A stretch of DNA of 13,230 nucleotides from a virus. Taxonomy: Duplodnaviria > Heunggongvirae > Uroviricota > Caudoviricetes. The position numbers were made by a program. The DNA is taken from IMG/VR virus record IMGVR_UViG_2563366990_000013, one strand, 5' to 3'. Below, piece by piece: positions 9,001-13,230 of the stretch; within the stretch, counting starts at the first letter, position 1, and each line of letters starts with the position of its first letter.

Positions 9001-12000
9001 TTCACTACGGACGGTTTCAGGCCGGTAGCGGCGGCATTACGGAAAACATCACTCCCCATGGCGCTTTTCTCATCCGTGAAATAACGGTTGTCCGGGCGCA
9101 CCTTTTCAATGCGTTCCGCTGGTCTGGACGCACCATTCCCGTTAATTTCAATGCGGACTTCATTCGGGTCCCGGAACCGCACCGTCGGGTAAATGCTCCC
9201 GTTACCATCCTCCGCATTTTCAGGCTGTGACTGTGCTTCCGGCGTCACTTCCTGTTGTGGGCGAATGACTTCTCGTATTGCCTGAAACTGTTGTTCTTCA
9301 GTCTCGGTGCGCTCCTCTTTCTGGCTGAGTCTGCGGTATTCCTCAAGCAGTTCAGAACGCGGCTTCGCCTTCAGCTCATTCATCACAGCCTGTCGCTTCG
9401 CCTGTTCGTCCAGTTCATTCAACAACTGGCTGGCAGCTTCCCGGCGATGAGCTGCGGATGCGTCACCCTCTGTTGCCATATCCGCATCAGCATACTGTTC
9501 CAGAAGCTGCTCGCGATTCATGCCCTGCATGGATTCACGATGCTGTGCCACCGGATCAACCGGTTCGGGTTGCGGGGCTGCGTCGTCCTGCTGCACGGTT
9601 TCAGCATCACGCATGGCTGCTTCTTCTGCGGCCTGACGTCTGCCACGATATCCGGCAACCGCACCGAATGGAGCCCCCATCGCAGCACCGAAAACAGTGC
9701 CTTCAATCCCTGCGTCAGTCACCCCCTCCCATGGCGATACATCCATTCCGGCGGTCTCACGCAATGCCATGTTTTCCTGATAGCGCGAATAGGCGTTCTG
9801 TGCCCCGTTAATTACGCCCTGTTCCGTGGCATTTCTGACAATGCCGCTTTTAACGGTCTTCGCTGTGCCTCGTGTCACCAGATTAAACAGTTGTGCGTCA
9901 CCCAGTTTTGCCGCCATGGCATTCACAGCCAGCAATTCAGGATCGGTTGCCAGCTGCGCGCGCACCTCATCGGCAACACGCTCTTTTGCCAGATCCATTT
10001 TCTGGCGATCAGTAAGCTGTGCATGCTGCGGGTCGGCGTCAATGGACAAAAACGTCTGCTGAAATTTCGGTGACTGCGCCAGCTCAGAGTAATCCGCATT
10101 AAGAACAGCATCTGCTGCCGCCATTGCACTCTGCCCCTGTGCACTGGCTGTGGAATGGGTGATCAGGCCCGCCTGGAATAAATCCGGCATTTTTTTATCG
10201 ACAGCTTCTGCTGCCAGTGCCGTGGCTCTTTCCGGCTGCATCCCTGCCGCGATGTATTTTTTCTCCAGCCCGGCGGTCAGCATTTTTCGCAGTGTGACAT
10301 CACCCACCTTTCTAGCCACACCGCCAGCAACCATATCAGGTACAAGCGCACCAATCAGGTTTACACCCTTCGCCAGCAAGACCGCAGAATCATCATAGCC
10401 TTCTGTTATCGGCGTATTCAGCGCACGAACAGCACCTGGCGACATCTGTTCTGTCAGCCATTCATCCGAGGCTTTGGCACCATCACTGACAGCCTTACCG
10501 GTTGCTTTCAGACCTTTACCGACAGTATCAGTGACCACGTTTTTTCCATCAGGCAGGGTATCGATGACCTCATCAGCCCCCCTGCTGCCACCGGCAAAAA
10601 TATCCTGAACAGTTGCGACACCCGGTAGCCCCATACGGCTGAACTCATTTAAAATACGCGCCCCTGTTTTTACCGGGCTCTGAATCATCGCATCACCGAG
10701 TCCACGGGCCATTTCCCCTGTTCCCCGGACGGACTGGGCAACACCTTTACCCATTGTTGGCAATACATCACCGAGGCTGAACGATGTGCTGTGATCAATG
10801 GCATTCTGCGGGTTGCTGAAAAAATCCTGCCAGTAATTTTCTCCCGGCTGCTTAATGTTCAGGCTGCTGCGGTTCTGGTTACCCAATTGCGCTTCAGGGC
10901 GCTGCTCATCTGAAAAAGCCATACAGACTCCAGTAAAAAAAAGCCCGACACGATGGTCGGGCGTAAGTGAACGATATTAACGGGGAGCGCGTTACTGCCG
11001 CATATCTTTACTTCATCCAGCCTTTGATCTTCTCGGCAGCTGCGGAAGCGCTATAATCCAGCGCCTTTTCATGCTCTGCCTTTTTATCCCGGAGGTGATT
11101 CTGGTAATAAATTTCCACCTCCTTTTCACGACCAGGTTCCAGCAAAGCAGGCGCATTGGCGGCAGCCTCTTTTACAAACTCCTGTTTAACCGGATCGCCC
11201 GCCGCCCACGTCTGCCACTTCTGTAAAAGCTGTTGCGTTTTCCGTTGCTGAACTTTCTGTTGATGCGGCTGTAAACCATTCGCAGCATAAAATTCATCCA
11301 CCTCAGCCTGAGCATCACGGCCATTCTTGATCGCATCCGCCGCTACGTTGCTGGCTACTTCCTGAAGTTTCGCCAGAGAAAGTCCCTGCTGCTTCGGCAT
11401 AAAATAACCATAATTTTTCGATATCTCTGCAAATTTGCTGCGATCCCTGACCTGAGCGATAGCCTTATCAACGGGTATCGCCAGCACGGTTTGATCATCA
11501 GGGTGCGCACTGCCGTATTCTGTTACAGGTTTATGCGCGGTGGAGCCATCGCTGTATGTGAGATCAAGGCCAATAAGTACGTACCCTTCCTGCTGCGCCG
11601 GTACGATACTGCCAATCCTGGCCTCTTTTATCGTTTTCTCCCCGGTTGAATCAGGCATGCCAATACGCTGTTGTAGTTCCGGGGCAAACACGCCGGAAAG
11701 CACATCGAGATTTTCCGGGGTATTCAGCGAAGCAATCGCCCTGTCCGGCTTATCATCAAAGATTTTCTGCAGGTTGTTCACGGCCTGACCCGCTTTCGCA
11801 GCATAGCCTACCGTTGACATCATCTTAAGCGGATTGGCGTCCGATAATTTACCGAACAGATGAGAAGCCGCATCATGGTCACCCGCATCAATCGCTTTTC
11901 CCAGCGCCGCCATCACAGGCTGATCGCGCGCCAGCATATCGTTATACTCAAGCCGTCGCTGGTTGTATTTCTGCAACTGGAGTCGTTGCTGTTCCATCCC

Positions 12001-13230
12001 CAGCGACGCATTCCGGTAATTCTGGTTGGCGTTAAACTCCCTTTCCTGCAGTGTGTAATTGCGGTCATCAACTTTGGCTCTGTAATCAAAGTTCCGCTGA
12101 TCAACGTCTTTATTATGTTCAAACTGAGACTGCGCAAATTCAAAATCGCGCTCGTTATTTTTCTGTTGCTGAGCAAGCTGTGCTTCTCGCAAACCAAGCT
12201 CCTTACGACGGGTCATTGCCTGGTCAACAGTGCTGAATCCGGCAAGTAACCCCTGTGCAAATCCGCTCATTCACCACTCCTTAAAACAAAGAACCAGCAA
12301 TGCCGCCAATTACTGCACCAGCAACAGCGCCAACAGGACCACCAACGGATGCGCCAATAGCCGCCCCCGTACCAATGCCCGTACCGATATTCTGTTTTTT
12401 CTGAGCTTTCTGTTGAGCAGCCAGTTGTTTATTTGATGCCTCAATCTCTGTGCGTCGTCTGTCTGCGTCACTTATTCCCTGTAATGCCTCACGCCGCGAC
12501 TGATTTGCAATATCCAGTAAACCGTATCCCATATTGCCCCCTTACACTGCCACCAGTTGTCCGCCAACACTCAGTTTCTGTCTTGCCGGTGCAGAAGCCC
12601 CCGTCAGAATATTCATCTGGCGATCCTGTTCGGCTTCACGGATACCATTTTTCGCGCCAGCAATTGCCAGGGCATTACGTAACCCCAGCGTATTACTGTC
12701 GGGATTATCCGGGCGGCTTACCCCGTATCTCGCCATCTGGTTATCCTGCGCCATCTGCGCTGTACGGAGACTGGAAGTGGCAAGGCCGCCCACCCGGGCA
12801 AGCTGTGCATTCATCAGGCTGTTGTTCTCGCCAAGGTCAGCCAGCCTTGCCACGCGGGGCAAATATCTGGTTCGCCAGTCGTCGTATTGTTGGCGTGTCA
12901 GCGCTGCTGACGTCTGCCAGTCACCCTGTGGACGGGCAGCTCCGGTATAACCGTATCTCGCAAGTGTTTCGTATTTACCGTACTCCATAATCACAGTCTC
13001 CAGTTCTGAGCCTGATGCTGAATGGCATTAGCGCCGGTGCCAGGTGTTTTAGCACCGCCACTTCCTCCGCTACCGCCAGCCTTATGCATCGCATATGCAC
13101 CTGCCGCACCCAAACCAGCGCCAACAAGAGAGGCTCGCCCCTGCTGTTTCGTAAACGCAGCCTGTGCGTCCGATTTAGCTTTTGCCAGACTGCTGTCTGC
13201 CAGCGAGTTAAAACTCTGTAACGCATCCGC

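What the first reader, a model, noticed from the sequence alone, without database searches (positions are those of the whole stretch)
11008..13230. Four tightly packed small-protein genes upstream of the giant ORF resemble an ejectosome/internal-protein module
Partial ORF, then 148-aa, 83-aa and 420-aa ORFs are separated by 0-11 nt. One junction is an overlapping stop/start (GTGA at 12991-12994); the others have an SD placed in or beside the previous stop codon (TAAGGAGTGGTGAATG; TAAGGGGGCAATATG). This implies stoichiometric co-expression of components of one complex. Two of the four have Gly-rich putative membrane segments, consistent with a membrane-spanning conduit. None shows obvious capsid, portal, tail-fibre or lysis signatures. 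The set is uncharacterised.
Basis: partly seen in the sequence, partly recalled or inferred. Interest (0 to 1): 0.55.

Follow-up and report, generated by a model that had tools for sequence, protein, structure and literature searches.

The report
Stx-phage internal virion protein cassette
These four tightly packed genes belong to a conserved cassette of a Shiga-toxin-type short-tailed prophage of E. coli; its products travel inside the virus particle and most likely help the giant neighbouring protein and the DNA cross the cell envelope, which fits and extends published data.

Summary
The ORFs and junctions are real. All lie on the minus strand of a Sepvirinae (933W/phi24B-type) prophage, and the window is 100% identical to E. 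coli 04-00955.

The genes are not uncharacterised. Their 80-100% identical orthologues in phi24B were all detected in purified virions. A, B and D are estimated at about 20-40 copies each and C gave only a few spectra. None was placed in the cryo-EM model. In Sp5, deleting D or the giant ORF gives DNA-filled, non-infectious particles. Deleting A lowers infectivity. B and C are dispensable.

I add the following:
- The order Z-A-B-C-D-giant is conserved in Vibrio podophages, metagenomes and prophages of 15 species.
- A and B are paralogues.
- C is a glycine-zipper micro-protein wrongly labelled "bacteriocin".
- D is modelled with a roughly 19 nm heptad-periodic helix behind a Gly-rich hydrophobic N-terminus.
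- No protein shows sequence or fold similarity to T7, N4 or DEV ejection proteins.

Best reading: an internal, probably ejected, protein cassette that is analogous but not homologous to the N4 gp52-gp51-gp50 ejectosome. The "one stoichiometric membrane conduit made of all four" part is not shown, and B/C dispensability weakens it. Interest is moderate.

The parts
12991..13230 (-). A: the 3' end (79 codons plus TGA) of a 218-aa virion protein, orthologous to phi24B vb_24B_44 ('gp51') and Sp5 ORF76. It has a Gly/Ala-rich C-terminus. Its N-terminal ~70 aa, outside the window, are paralogous to B.
   Evidence: One search gives the translation; 100% identical to the vb_24B_44 C-terminus; phrog_611; 523 PSMs, about 22 copies in phi24B virions; dORF76 has reduced infectivity; hhalign A vs B, 93.5% probability.
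12542..12988 (-). B: a 148-aa virion protein, orthologous to vb_24B_45 ('gp50') and Sp5 ORF77. It is predicted to be three long helices at low confidence. It is a paralogue of A and is dispensable in Sp5.
   Evidence: 99.3% identity; phrog_596; 83 PSMs in the batch digest, about 36-40 copies; 174 clusters in Enterobacterales, Vibrio and Aeromonas; pLDDT 60.6. ORF mapping.
12281..12532 (-). C: an 83-aa glycine-zipper micro-protein, orthologous to vb_24B_46 ('gp49 bacteriocin') and Sp5 ORF78. It has a polar N-terminal half and a 35-residue uncharged C-terminal zipper ending GSLF.
   Evidence: Gly-zipper_YMGG 25.7 bits vs cut-off 28.9; Bacteriocin_IIc 19.5 vs 27.1; conserved in Vibrio phages; 13 PSMs, and the authors dismissed it as contamination because of its annotation.
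11008..12270 (-). D: a 420-aa essential virion protein, orthologous to vb_24B_47 ('gp48') and Sp5 ORF79. It has a conserved Gly-rich hydrophobic N-terminus (GFAQGLLAGF), one predicted helix spanning residues 4-129 with heptad periodicity, an alpha/beta core, and a variable C-terminal helical module.
   Evidence: 80% identity; phrog_601.. AF2 pLDDT 87; hydrophobic moment 0.519 at 102.9 degrees vs 0.122 at 100 degrees; 1634 PSMs, about 30 copies; essential, with DNA packaged; mosaic C-terminus.
10935..10962 (-). Terminator-like hairpin GCCCGAC-CATCGT-GTCGGGC followed by T8, in the 85-nt D-to-giant spacer, just upstream of the GGAG SD and the ATG at 10922.
   Evidence: conserved in ArgO145, phiSTEC1589 and phi24B. 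Analogous hairpin plus U-run in Vibrio phage 1.205.O and between N4 gp51 and gp50.
2535..10922 (-). Giant 2795-aa polyvalent virion protein, orthologous to vb_24B_48 ('gp47') and Sp5 ORF80. Domains are LPD5, LPD1, MuF_C (PBECR) and LPD38. It has two HExxH motifs, its own Gly-zipper (408-425) and hydrophobic segments at 181-199 and 2447-2469.
   Evidence: 92% identity.; most abundant non-shell virion protein, proposed as an ejection protein; essential.

Best explanation
The four ORFs belong to a conserved cassette. Its other members are a fifth gene, Z, just outside the window, and the giant ORF downstream. This is the internal-virion-protein cassette of Stx-type (Sepvirinae) and related T=9 podophages.

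Shown:
- A, B, D and the giant polyvalent protein are present in purified particles at roughly tens of copies each. C is present at a low level.
- None of them is part of the ordered capsid, portal, adaptor, nozzle or fibre structure.
- D and the giant protein are required after DNA packaging for infectivity. A contributes. B and C are individually dispensable.

Inferred:
- A to D are made from the late transcript by closely coupled translation (2-, 9- and 10-nt spacers with an SD at the preceding stop). The giant protein is started separately, behind a hairpin.
- The products are loaded into the head or the portal-tail lumen. When the needle is released they leave ahead of the DNA.
- Outside the particle they extend the ~22 nm tail across the envelope.
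- D is the periplasm-spanning element. It has a Gly-rich hydrophobic N-terminal peptide followed by a ~19 nm heptad coiled coil.
- The glycine-zipper segments of C, A and the giant protein are the membrane-inserting elements. The giant protein is both the inner-membrane/cytoplasmic component and the cargo.
- A and B are paralogues with partial redundancy.

Functionally this mirrors N4 gp52 (outer-membrane complex), gp51 (periplasmic tunnel) and gp50 (giant cargo), and T7 gp14/15/16. It does so without detectable homology to either.
For: Orthology. The window proteins are 100% (A), 99.3% (B), 95.2% (C), 80.1% (D) and 92.4% (giant) identical to phi24B vb_24B_44-48. They map onto Sp5 ORF76-80 by size and order.

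Virion proteomics, bioRxiv 10.64898/2026.04.10.717836 supplement. PSM counts are given as total/batch digest, followed by the authors' average copy estimate:
- gp48 = D: 1634/179, ~30 copies.
- gp51 = A: 523/82, ~22 copies.
- gp50 = B: 129/83, ~36-40 copies.
- gp47 = giant: 10962/746, ~19 copies.
- C: 13/6, no estimate.
The structure-based abundance is 'ND' for A, B, D and the giant. The atomic model uses only gp57, 61, 62, 64, 67, 69, 72 and 84, plus the needle gp56 placed in the nozzle.

Genetics, PMC5155283:
- dORF79 (D) and dORF80 (giant) give no plaques and no lysogens.
- Both are complemented in trans.
- Both have wild-type levels of DNase-protected DNA and normal-looking heads.
- dORF76 (A) has markedly reduced infectivity.

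Synteny:
- The same gene order and sizes occur in Vibrio phages douglas 12A4 and 1.205.O and in a metagenome contig.
- They also occur in 15 loci from 15 species. There the Z-A-B-C-D order is kept wherever sequence extends. A giant homologue lies downstream in 11 of 12 informative loci.
- 423 of 5426 complete E. coli genomes carry the block.

Support from other phages:
- The family-A HMM hits JC1 gp64 (E 3e-13).
- In JC1, gp64, gp67, gp68 and the giant gp69 are virion proteins by MS.

Precedent: the N4 cassette gp52 (150 aa), gp51 (644 aa), gp50 (3500 aa). gp51 and gp52 are present at 12 copies each, are lost from empty particles and form channels in bilayers.

Protein features:
- D model has pLDDT 87 and a helix spanning residues 4-129.
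- That helix has heptad periodicity.
- G7 and G11 of D are nearly invariant.
- C has a glycine zipper.
- The giant protein has its own zipper and hydrophobic segments.
Against: - B and C are individually dispensable and A is only partly required. A fixed five-part conduit is therefore unlikely.
- Mondal et al. report that anti-fibre antibody did not label dORF79 or dORF80 particles (data not shown). They read the two genes as tail-assembly genes.
- Nobody has shown that these proteins leave the particle, bind one another or form pores.
- The B model has low confidence (pLDDT 60.6).
- The Gly-rich stretch in A is too short and too weakly hydrophobic for a TM helix.
- Copy numbers are spectral-count estimates. 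Calibration proteins are off by 2-5 fold.
Confidence: 0.55

Rival explanations
1. Capsid-internal loading and partner proteins for the polyvalent anti-defence protein, in the manner of phage P1 Hdf/DarA/DdrA with DarB. A-D would be packaged with the giant protein, or would recruit it into the procapsid. They may enter the cell with it, but they would not build a trans-envelope channel.
For: - Co-occurrence with the giant protein is strict.
- The giant's C-terminal region matches the PHROG named 'DarB-like antirestriction' (phrog_10089, E 1e-26).
- All are virion proteins of unknown location.
- B and C are dispensable, as accessory factors would be.
- D's C-terminal module and the giant's N-terminal 200 aa vary together between phages.
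- The P1 Dar dependency hierarchy is established knowledge (Piya et al. 2017) and is summarised.
Against: - D and the giant protein are essential for any infection of a restriction-neutral K-12 host. P1 dar mutants are viable on non-restricting hosts (established knowledge).
- No PHROG, Pfam or NCBIfam hit links A-D to Dar proteins.
- A 22-nm podovirus tail needs some envelope-spanning extension, and no other candidates exist in the proteome.
Confidence: 0.2
2. Tail-morphogenesis factors. D and the giant protein would be needed to assemble or stabilise the short tail, and A-C would be minor tail or neck components. This is the interpretation of Mondal et al. 2016.
For: - dORF79 and dORF80 particles package DNA but are not labelled by the anti-fibre (ORF67) antibody.
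- The genes lie at the end of the tail gene block. In Vibrio phages they directly follow the nozzle and fibre genes.
Against: - The phi24B tail was modelled completely from portal, two adaptors, nozzle, lateral fibres and needle. No density was assigned to D, A, B or the giant protein, although each is at about 20-40 copies.
- The immuno-EM result is a negative result with data not shown.
- A 2795-aa protein with LPD, PBECR and HExxH domains is of the injected-effector class.
Confidence: 0.15
3. Non-structural accessory genes (morons). C would be a bacteriocin or membrane toxin, D a transcription factor, and the rest lysogenic-conversion genes. This reading follows database annotations and their position beyond lom/hok near attR.
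For: - RefSeq calls C 'bacteriocin'.
- The GenBank note on vb_24B_47 says 'similar to putative transcription initiation factor and seryl-tRNA synthetase'.
- The cassette is flanked by morons: lom, hok and Eib-like adhesins.
Against: - The Bacteriocin_IIc hit is below threshold (19.5 vs 27.1 bits). It covers only the Gly zipper, and there is no double-glycine leader.
- The cassette occurs directly after the tail genes, with no lom/hok-type morons in between, in two Vibrio podophages.
- The proteins are in purified virions.
- D is essential for infectivity.
Confidence: 0.02

Closest known systems
Schitoviridae (N4, DEV) ejection cassette: N4 gp52 (150 aa, outer-membrane complex), gp51 (644 aa, periplasmic tunnel), gp50 (3500 aa virion RNA polymerase). 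Source: Bellis et al. 2026, PMC13434306; Lokareddy et al. 2024, PMC11445570.
   Same: - Small, then mid-size, then giant gene order next to the tail genes.
- The giant product is encapsidated and essential.
- The small partners are helical virion proteins at 12 or more copies and are invisible in symmetric reconstructions.
- A hairpin plus U-run lies just upstream of the giant gene.
- The host phages share an N4-type major capsid protein and a T=9 capsid.
   Different: - No sequence similarity: hhalign B vs the gp52 family gives 0.3% and A vs gp52 gives 1.2%. The D, A, B and C HMMs do not hit gp51-55.
- There are five or six genes instead of three.
- The giant protein is a polyvalent LPD/PBECR protein, not an RNA polymerase.
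- Two of the small proteins are dispensable.
- Ejection and channel formation are untested here.
T7 gp14/gp15/gp16 and P22 gp7/gp20/gp16 DNA-ejectosomes
   Same: - Loss of D or the giant protein gives DNA-filled, normal-looking, non-infectious particles. This is the classical phenotype of P22 7/16/20 and T7 14/15/16 mutants (established knowledge; the T7 roles are summarised).
- Gene order runs by increasing size.
- The third protein is the largest.
   Different: - No ordered internal core was reported in phi24B.
- D carries a single long heptad coiled coil rather than the helical-hairpin bundle of gp15.
- No lytic transglycosylase domain was found.
Bcep22-like (Lessievirus) virion proteins upstream of the giant 'DarB-like' protein: JC1 gp64, gp67, gp68, gp69 (PMC9144972)
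   Same: - Same position between the nozzle and the giant gene.
- gp64, gp67, gp68 and gp69 are virion-associated by MS.
- gp64 is a detectable family-A homologue (E 3e-13).
- gp67 is Gly-rich and ends in ...GGILGSLLKKIF, like C.
   Different: - Only A is detectably homologous. D does not match gp68.
- Moron genes interrupt the JC1 block.
- The functions are equally unknown there.
Polyvalent proteins (Iyer, Burroughs, Anand, de Souza, Aravind 2017, PMC5512222)
   Same: The giant ORF carries LPD5, LPD1, MuF_C (PBECR) and LPD38 above Pfam thresholds. It lies in a virion-gene context, which is the paper's criterion for proteins injected with the DNA.
   Different: In the passages retrieved, that work describes the giant proteins and not a partner cassette of small proteins. 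A-D carry none of its domains.

Membership tests
Podovirus DNA-ejectosome / ejection proteins (T7 gp14-16, P22 gp7/20/16, N4 gp52/51/50) | The proteins are present in mature, purified virions. | tested here: met
   Orthologues 80-100% identical were detected in CsCl-purified phi24B: D 1634 PSMs, A 523, B 129, C 13, giant 10962.
Podovirus DNA-ejectosome / ejection proteins | Located inside the head or the portal-tail lumen, not in the ordered shell or tail. | tested here: inconclusive
   They are absent from the phi24B atomic model, and the structure-based abundance is 'ND'. No positive localisation exists.
Podovirus DNA-ejectosome / ejection proteins | Released from the particle on DNA ejection. 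| not testable with these tools
   The phi24B preparation was a mixture with 41% empty particles. No separate proteomes are available.
Podovirus DNA-ejectosome / ejection proteins | Null mutants make DNA-filled particles that cannot infect. | tested here: inconclusive
   Met for D and the giant protein (Sp5 dORF79, dORF80). Partly met for A (dORF76). Not met for B and C, which are not among the nine essential genes.
Podovirus DNA-ejectosome / ejection proteins | A contiguous cassette next to the tail genes, ordered small to mid to largest. | tested here: met
   Sizes of 133/218/148/83/420/2795 aa, in a conserved order, across Sepvirinae, Vibrio phages, a metagenome contig and 15 prophage loci.
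Podovirus DNA-ejectosome / ejection proteins | Sequence homology to a known ejection-protein family. | tested here: not met
   phmmer and profile searches against PDB sequences found nothing relevant. HMMs did not hit N4 gp51-55. hhalign vs the N4 gp52 family gave 0.3% and 1.2%.
Podovirus DNA-ejectosome / ejection proteins | Fold of a periplasmic-tunnel protein (T7 gp15 / DEV gp72 type). | tested here: not met
Podovirus DNA-ejectosome / ejection proteins | Membrane insertion or channel activity. | not testable with these tools
   There are only sequence hints: the zipper in C, the conserved Gly-rich hydrophobic N-terminus of D, and the giant's zipper.
Glycine-zipper membrane segment (Pfam Gly-zipper_YMGG / Gly-zipper_Omp), for C | Repeated (G/A/S)xxx(G/A/S) motif over an uncharged stretch, and a score above the Pfam gathering threshold. 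| tested here: inconclusive
   There are 13 overlapping motif starts in residues 50-73 and 35 uncharged residues. The score is 25.7 bits against a cut-off of 28.9.
Class IIc bacteriocin (the RefSeq label of C) | Pfam Bacteriocin_IIc above threshold, a double-glycine leader, and an immunity/export gene context. | tested here: not met
   19.5 bits against a cut-off of 27.1. There is no leader motif in the sequence. The context is a phage late operon.
Polyvalent protein (the giant ORF) | Multiple LPD or effector domains in one polypeptide, in a virion-gene context. | tested here: met
   LPD38 at 167.6 bits, LPD5 at 154, MuF_C at 83.9 and LPD1 at 82.8 bits, all above their cut-offs of 27-27.6.
Phage P1 Dar system (Hdf/DarA/DdrA/DarB) | Homology of the small partners to Hdf, DarA or DdrA. 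| tested here: not met
   A-D hit only unknown-function PHROGs 611, 596, 594 and 601. Only the giant's C-terminus hits the 'DarB-like' phrog_10089. No direct comparison with P1 sequences was run.

The most novel reading that the evidence does not exclude
Z-A-B-C-D plus the giant polyvalent protein would be a distinct type of podovirus ejectosome, unrelated in sequence and fold to the known ones. An essential coiled-coil protein with a fusion-peptide-like N-terminus (D) and a ~300 kDa polyvalent effector would take the places of the periplasmic tunnel and the inner-membrane complex. A duplicated pair (A/B) and a glycine-zipper micro-protein (C) would act as redundant membrane-active helpers. 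The system would be shared by Stx phages, marine Vibrio podophages, many Enterobacterales prophages and, in part, Bcep22-like phages.
Probability: 0.4. Interest if true: 0.6.

Novelty: new variant of a known kind. Interest (0 to 1): 0.4.

Why it matters
Short-tailed Stx phages spread Shiga toxin genes. How they cross the envelope after binding BamA is unknown.

The published work leaves the pieces unconnected. One paper calls D and the giant ORF "tail formation" genes. Another proposes only the giant protein as an ejection protein, lists A, B and D as unlocated hypothetical proteins, and discards C as contamination.

Putting genetics, proteomics, synteny and sequence features together gives a concrete, testable set of entry-machinery candidates. 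The cassette is present in about 8% of complete E. coli genomes. It also corrects misleading annotations: "bacteriocin", "transcription factor", and the likely wrong start of the phi24B giant ORF.

It is not a new principle. Ejection cassettes next to a giant internal protein are now well described for N4-like phages.

Tried and rejected
- Profile searches of the D and B families against all PDB sequences found nothing.
- The D HMM did not hit JC1 gp68 or N4 gp51-55. hhalign of B and A against an N4 gp52 family alignment was negative.
- AF2 on B gave pLDDT 60.6, too poor for a fold search.
A narrower B alignment worked.
- A protein that fuses the N-terminus of C to D (P0133) looked like a Rosetta-stone fusion. 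It sits in a decayed prophage, with holin and lysozyme directly upstream and only LPD5 fragments, so it is probably a deletion artefact.
- Locus L011 (Yersinia frederiksenii) lacks Z and the giant gene. It is also a remnant, so it says nothing about independence from the giant protein.
- The 2012 phi24B lysogen-expression paper and the 2025 EHEC phage paper add nothing on these genes.
- I considered DNA retention in dORF79/80 particles as an argument for intact tails. I dropped it because the other three mutants that Mondal et al. class as tail-formation mutants (dORF67, the fibre gene, dORF70 and dORF71) also retain DNA.

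
Full report
**What is in the window**

All genes of interest are on the minus strand.
- A: partial ORF, 13230..12991, the last 79 codons.
- B: 12988..12542, 148 aa.
- C: 12532..12281, 83 aa.
- D: 12270..11008, 420 aa.
- Then an 85-nt spacer.
- Giant ORF: 10922..2535, 2795 aa.

The junctions read as follows:
- A-TGA-TT-ATG-B, with GGAG 9 nt upstream of the ATG.
- B-TAA-GGGGGCAAT-ATG-C.
- C-TAA-GGAGTGGTGA-ATG-D.

The GTGA stop/start overlap is physically present but implies a 150-aa product. 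It has a poor SD spacing of 3 nt. It cannot exist in Sp5, where the stop is TAA (primer sequences). The conserved start is therefore the ATG at 12988.

The D-giant spacer carries a terminator-like hairpin (GCCCGAC/GTCGGGC plus T8).

**Origin**

The region is 86-96% identical to 186 phage records. All are short-tailed Stx-converting or related Sepvirinae phages. It is 100% identical to a prophage of E. coli 04-00955. That prophage has an N4-gp56-family capsid gene and lies next to rcsD/ompC. In all, 423 of 5426 complete E. coli genomes carry the block.

In ArgO145, phi24B and this strain the genes close the late operon, after the lom/hok morons. A further gene, Z (133 aa), lies just upstream of A.

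**Family searches**

Pfam, PHROGs and NCBIfam give no function for A, B or D; they fall in phrog_611, 596 and 601, all of unknown function. C hits only glycine-zipper models, below threshold. Its Bacteriocin_IIc score is 19.5 bits against a cut-off of 27.1, which is the source of its RefSeq label "bacteriocin".

The giant ORF is a polyvalent protein with LPD5, LPD1, MuF_C and LPD38. Iyer et al. 2017 predicted this class to be injected with the DNA. MuF_C is their predicted PBECR RNase domain, not a peptidase.

**The genes are not uncharacterised**

Proteomics. The window proteins are 100% (A), 99.3% (B), 95.2% (C), 80.1% (D) and 92.4% (giant) identical to phi24B vb_24B_44-48. A 2026 preprint on phi24B (bioRxiv 10.64898/2026.04.10.717836) combines cryo-EM with proteomics. 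Its supplementary tables list PSMs as total/batch digest:

| Paper's name | Window protein | PSMs | Authors' average copy estimate |
|---|---|---|---|
| gp48 | D | 1634/179 | ~30 |
| gp51 | A | 523/82 | ~22 |
| gp50 | B | 129/83 | ~36-40 |
| gp47 | giant | 10962/746 | ~19 |

- The structure-based abundance is "ND" for all four.
- My own PSM-per-residue calculation normalised to the portal agrees. It also shows that calibration proteins deviate 2-5 fold.
[quoted passage not shown] That judgement rests on the annotation only.
- The atomic model uses gp57, 61, 62, 64, 67, 69, 72 and 84, and the needle gp56 is placed in the nozzle. Only gp47 is discussed as an encapsidated ejection protein.

Genetics. 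Mondal et al. 2016 (PMC5155283) made in-frame deletions in Sp5.
- Their Table S1 maps ORF75-80 (133, 218, 148, 83, 421 and 2793 aa) onto Z, A, B, C, D and the giant ORF.
- dORF79 and dORF80 give no plaques or lysogens and are complemented in trans. They contain wild-type amounts of DNase-protected DNA and have normal-looking heads.
- dORF76 is still infectious but markedly impaired.
- ORF75, 77 and 78 are not among the nine essential genes.
- The authors call ORF79 and ORF80 tail-formation genes, because anti-fibre antibody did not label the mutants (data not shown).

**New analysis: a conserved cassette**

D and B have distant homologues (28-35% identity) in Vibrio podophages. There the same run of genes directly follows the tail genes:
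- Douglas 12A4: 217/128/78/566/3026 aa.
- 1.205.O: 131/201/117/77/442/3130 aa.

A metagenome contig shows 119/221/126/90/440 aa, then a giant MuF_C/LPD38 gene.

A scan of one genome per species with a B profile returned 15 loci in 15 species. They include Citrobacter, Yersinia, Serratia, Brenneria, Pectobacterium, Edwardsiella, Pseudaeromonas and Symbiopectobacterium. HMMs for each family show the order Z-A-B-C-D wherever sequence extends. A giant homologue lies downstream in 11 of 12 informative loci.

The D family is small: 72 representatives at E<1e-3 among 1.84 billion.

The family-A HMM also hits JC1 gp64 (E 3e-13). In JC1, gp64, gp67, gp68 and the giant gp69 are virion proteins by MS.

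**New analysis: protein features**

- A and B are paralogues. hhalign gives 93.5% probability and E 2.4e-7 over A20-91 and B26-94 (smaller test). Negative controls stay below 10%.
- C is conserved from E. coli to Vibrio. It has a polar N-terminal half and a C-terminal zipper ending G(S/E)(L/I)F.
- D's AF2 model (48-sequence alignment, pLDDT 87) has a single helix at residues 4-129, about 19 nm long. An alpha/beta core carrying the family motif VTYxDGSTAxKPxT follows, then a helical C-terminus.
- That helix has a strong heptad signal: hydrophobic moment 0.519 at 102.9 degrees against 0.122 at 100 degrees.
- The N-terminus GFAQGLLAGF has nearly invariant glycines.
- The giant protein has its own Gly-zipper (408-425), hydrophobic segments at 181-199 and 2447-2469, and two HExxH motifs.

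**Comparison with known systems**

The closest functional precedent is the Schitoviridae ejection cassette. N4 gp52 (150 aa), gp51 (644 aa) and gp50 (3500 aa) lie in that order next to the tail plug and tube genes. gp51 and gp52 are present at 12 copies each, disappear from empty particles and form channels in bilayers. T7 gp14/15/16 are the classical model.

The cassette studied here matches in several respects:
- The gene layout.
- Virion association.
- The mutant phenotype of the two largest members.
- A hairpin plus U-run in front of the giant gene.

Homology was tested and not found:
- PDB sequence and profile searches.
- HMMs against N4 gp51-55 and JC1 gp68.
- hhalign against a gp52 family alignment.

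It therefore plausibly works like an ejectosome but cannot be filed as a member of any known ejection-protein family.

**Interpretation**

I consider it about 85% likely that A, B, D and probably C are genuine internal virion proteins. I put about 55% on the fuller mechanism: ejection ahead of the DNA, D as the periplasm-spanning element, zipper segments as membrane-inserting elements, and the giant protein as inner-membrane component and cargo.

The main rivals are:
- A P1 Dar-like loading or partner role for the polyvalent protein (0.2).
- A tail-assembly role, as proposed in 2016 (0.15).
- The moron, bacteriocin or transcription-factor reading, which is effectively excluded (0.02).

Paralogy of A and B, and multiple zipper segments, offer a redundancy explanation, but that is an inference.

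**Verdict**

This is a real, conserved feature. Much of the supporting evidence is already in the literature, but it has not been joined up. It is a new variant of a known kind of system and of moderate interest.

Noticed in passing
window 10935-10962 (minus strand); L003 5650-5677; L009 15027-15126: A terminator-like hairpin plus U-run sits between D and the giant ORF. It is conserved in ArgO145, phiSTEC1589 and phi24B. Analogous elements precede the giant gene in Vibrio phage 1.205.O and in N4 (between gp51 and gp50). It may be a dosage attenuator or a transcript-stabilising element. Q-antiterminated late transcription should read through it.
   Followed up: partly
L003 5649-5690 (phi24B vb_24B_48 start): The annotated ATG of the phi24B giant ORF lies upstream of the hairpin. 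The second ATG, 13 codons later, has the GGAG SD and aligns with residue 1 of the window protein. The phi24B start is therefore probably mis-annotated.
   Followed up: partly
window 931-2175 and 371-916 (minus strand): Downstream of the giant ORF lie a YadA-anchor trimeric autotransporter and its small partner ORF. The match to the P-EibE locus (eibE and orf-156E) covers 61% of window 1-2534 at 93% identity. In the source genome a second YadA-like gene sits upstream of Z, so the cassette is bracketed by adhesin morons.
   Followed up: partly
window ~5220-5820 (giant ORF residues ~1700-1900): This segment of the giant protein is only 38-58% identical to phi24B, ArgO145 and phiSTEC1589, while the rest is 90-100% identical. 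It covers the MuF_C (PBECR) domain. This suggests an exchanged effector cassette inside the polyvalent protein.
   Followed up: partly
window 11008-11370 (D residues ~300-420) and 10320-10922 (giant residues 1-200): D's C-terminal ~120 residues and the giant's N-terminal ~200 residues vary together between phages. D's C-terminus is 37-53% identical to phi24B and 63-80% to ArgO145. The giant's N-terminus is 82-83% and 90-95% identical, respectively. This is either one mosaic recombination block or a co-evolving interface.
   Followed up: partly
window 12542-13230 (A and B): A and B share a homologous N-terminal domain of ~70 residues (hhalign 93.5%, E 2.4e-7). They are an adjacent duplicated pair, which could explain why deleting B alone has no phenotype.
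   Followed up: yes
window 12281-12532 (C) and 11008-12270 (D): Database labels mislead. C is called 'bacteriocin' in RefSeq and for that reason was discarded as a contaminant in the phi24B proteome. The GenBank note for D's phi24B orthologue says 'transcription initiation factor / seryl-tRNA synthetase', which is probably a coiled-coil artefact.
   Followed up: yes
L007 8901-10229: One metagenomic protein (P0133) fuses the N-terminal half of a C-like protein to a D-like protein. The locus is a decayed prophage: holin and lysozyme lie directly upstream and only LPD5 fragments lie downstream. The fusion is probably a deletion product.
   Followed up: partly
L008 2858-3856 and 4906-5496 (Burkholderia phage JC1 gp64, gp67): JC1 gp64, a virion protein by MS, is a family-A homologue (HMM E 3e-13). 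JC1 gp67 is Gly-rich and ends ...GGILGSLLKKIF, like C, but the C HMM does not detect it.
   Followed up: partly
L003 2482-2883 (Z, vb_24B_43; just outside the window): The 133-aa gene upstream of A is as conserved in position as A-D. It was not detected in the phi24B virion proteome and is non-essential in Sp5. It may be a non-structural chaperone of the cassette.
   Followed up: partly
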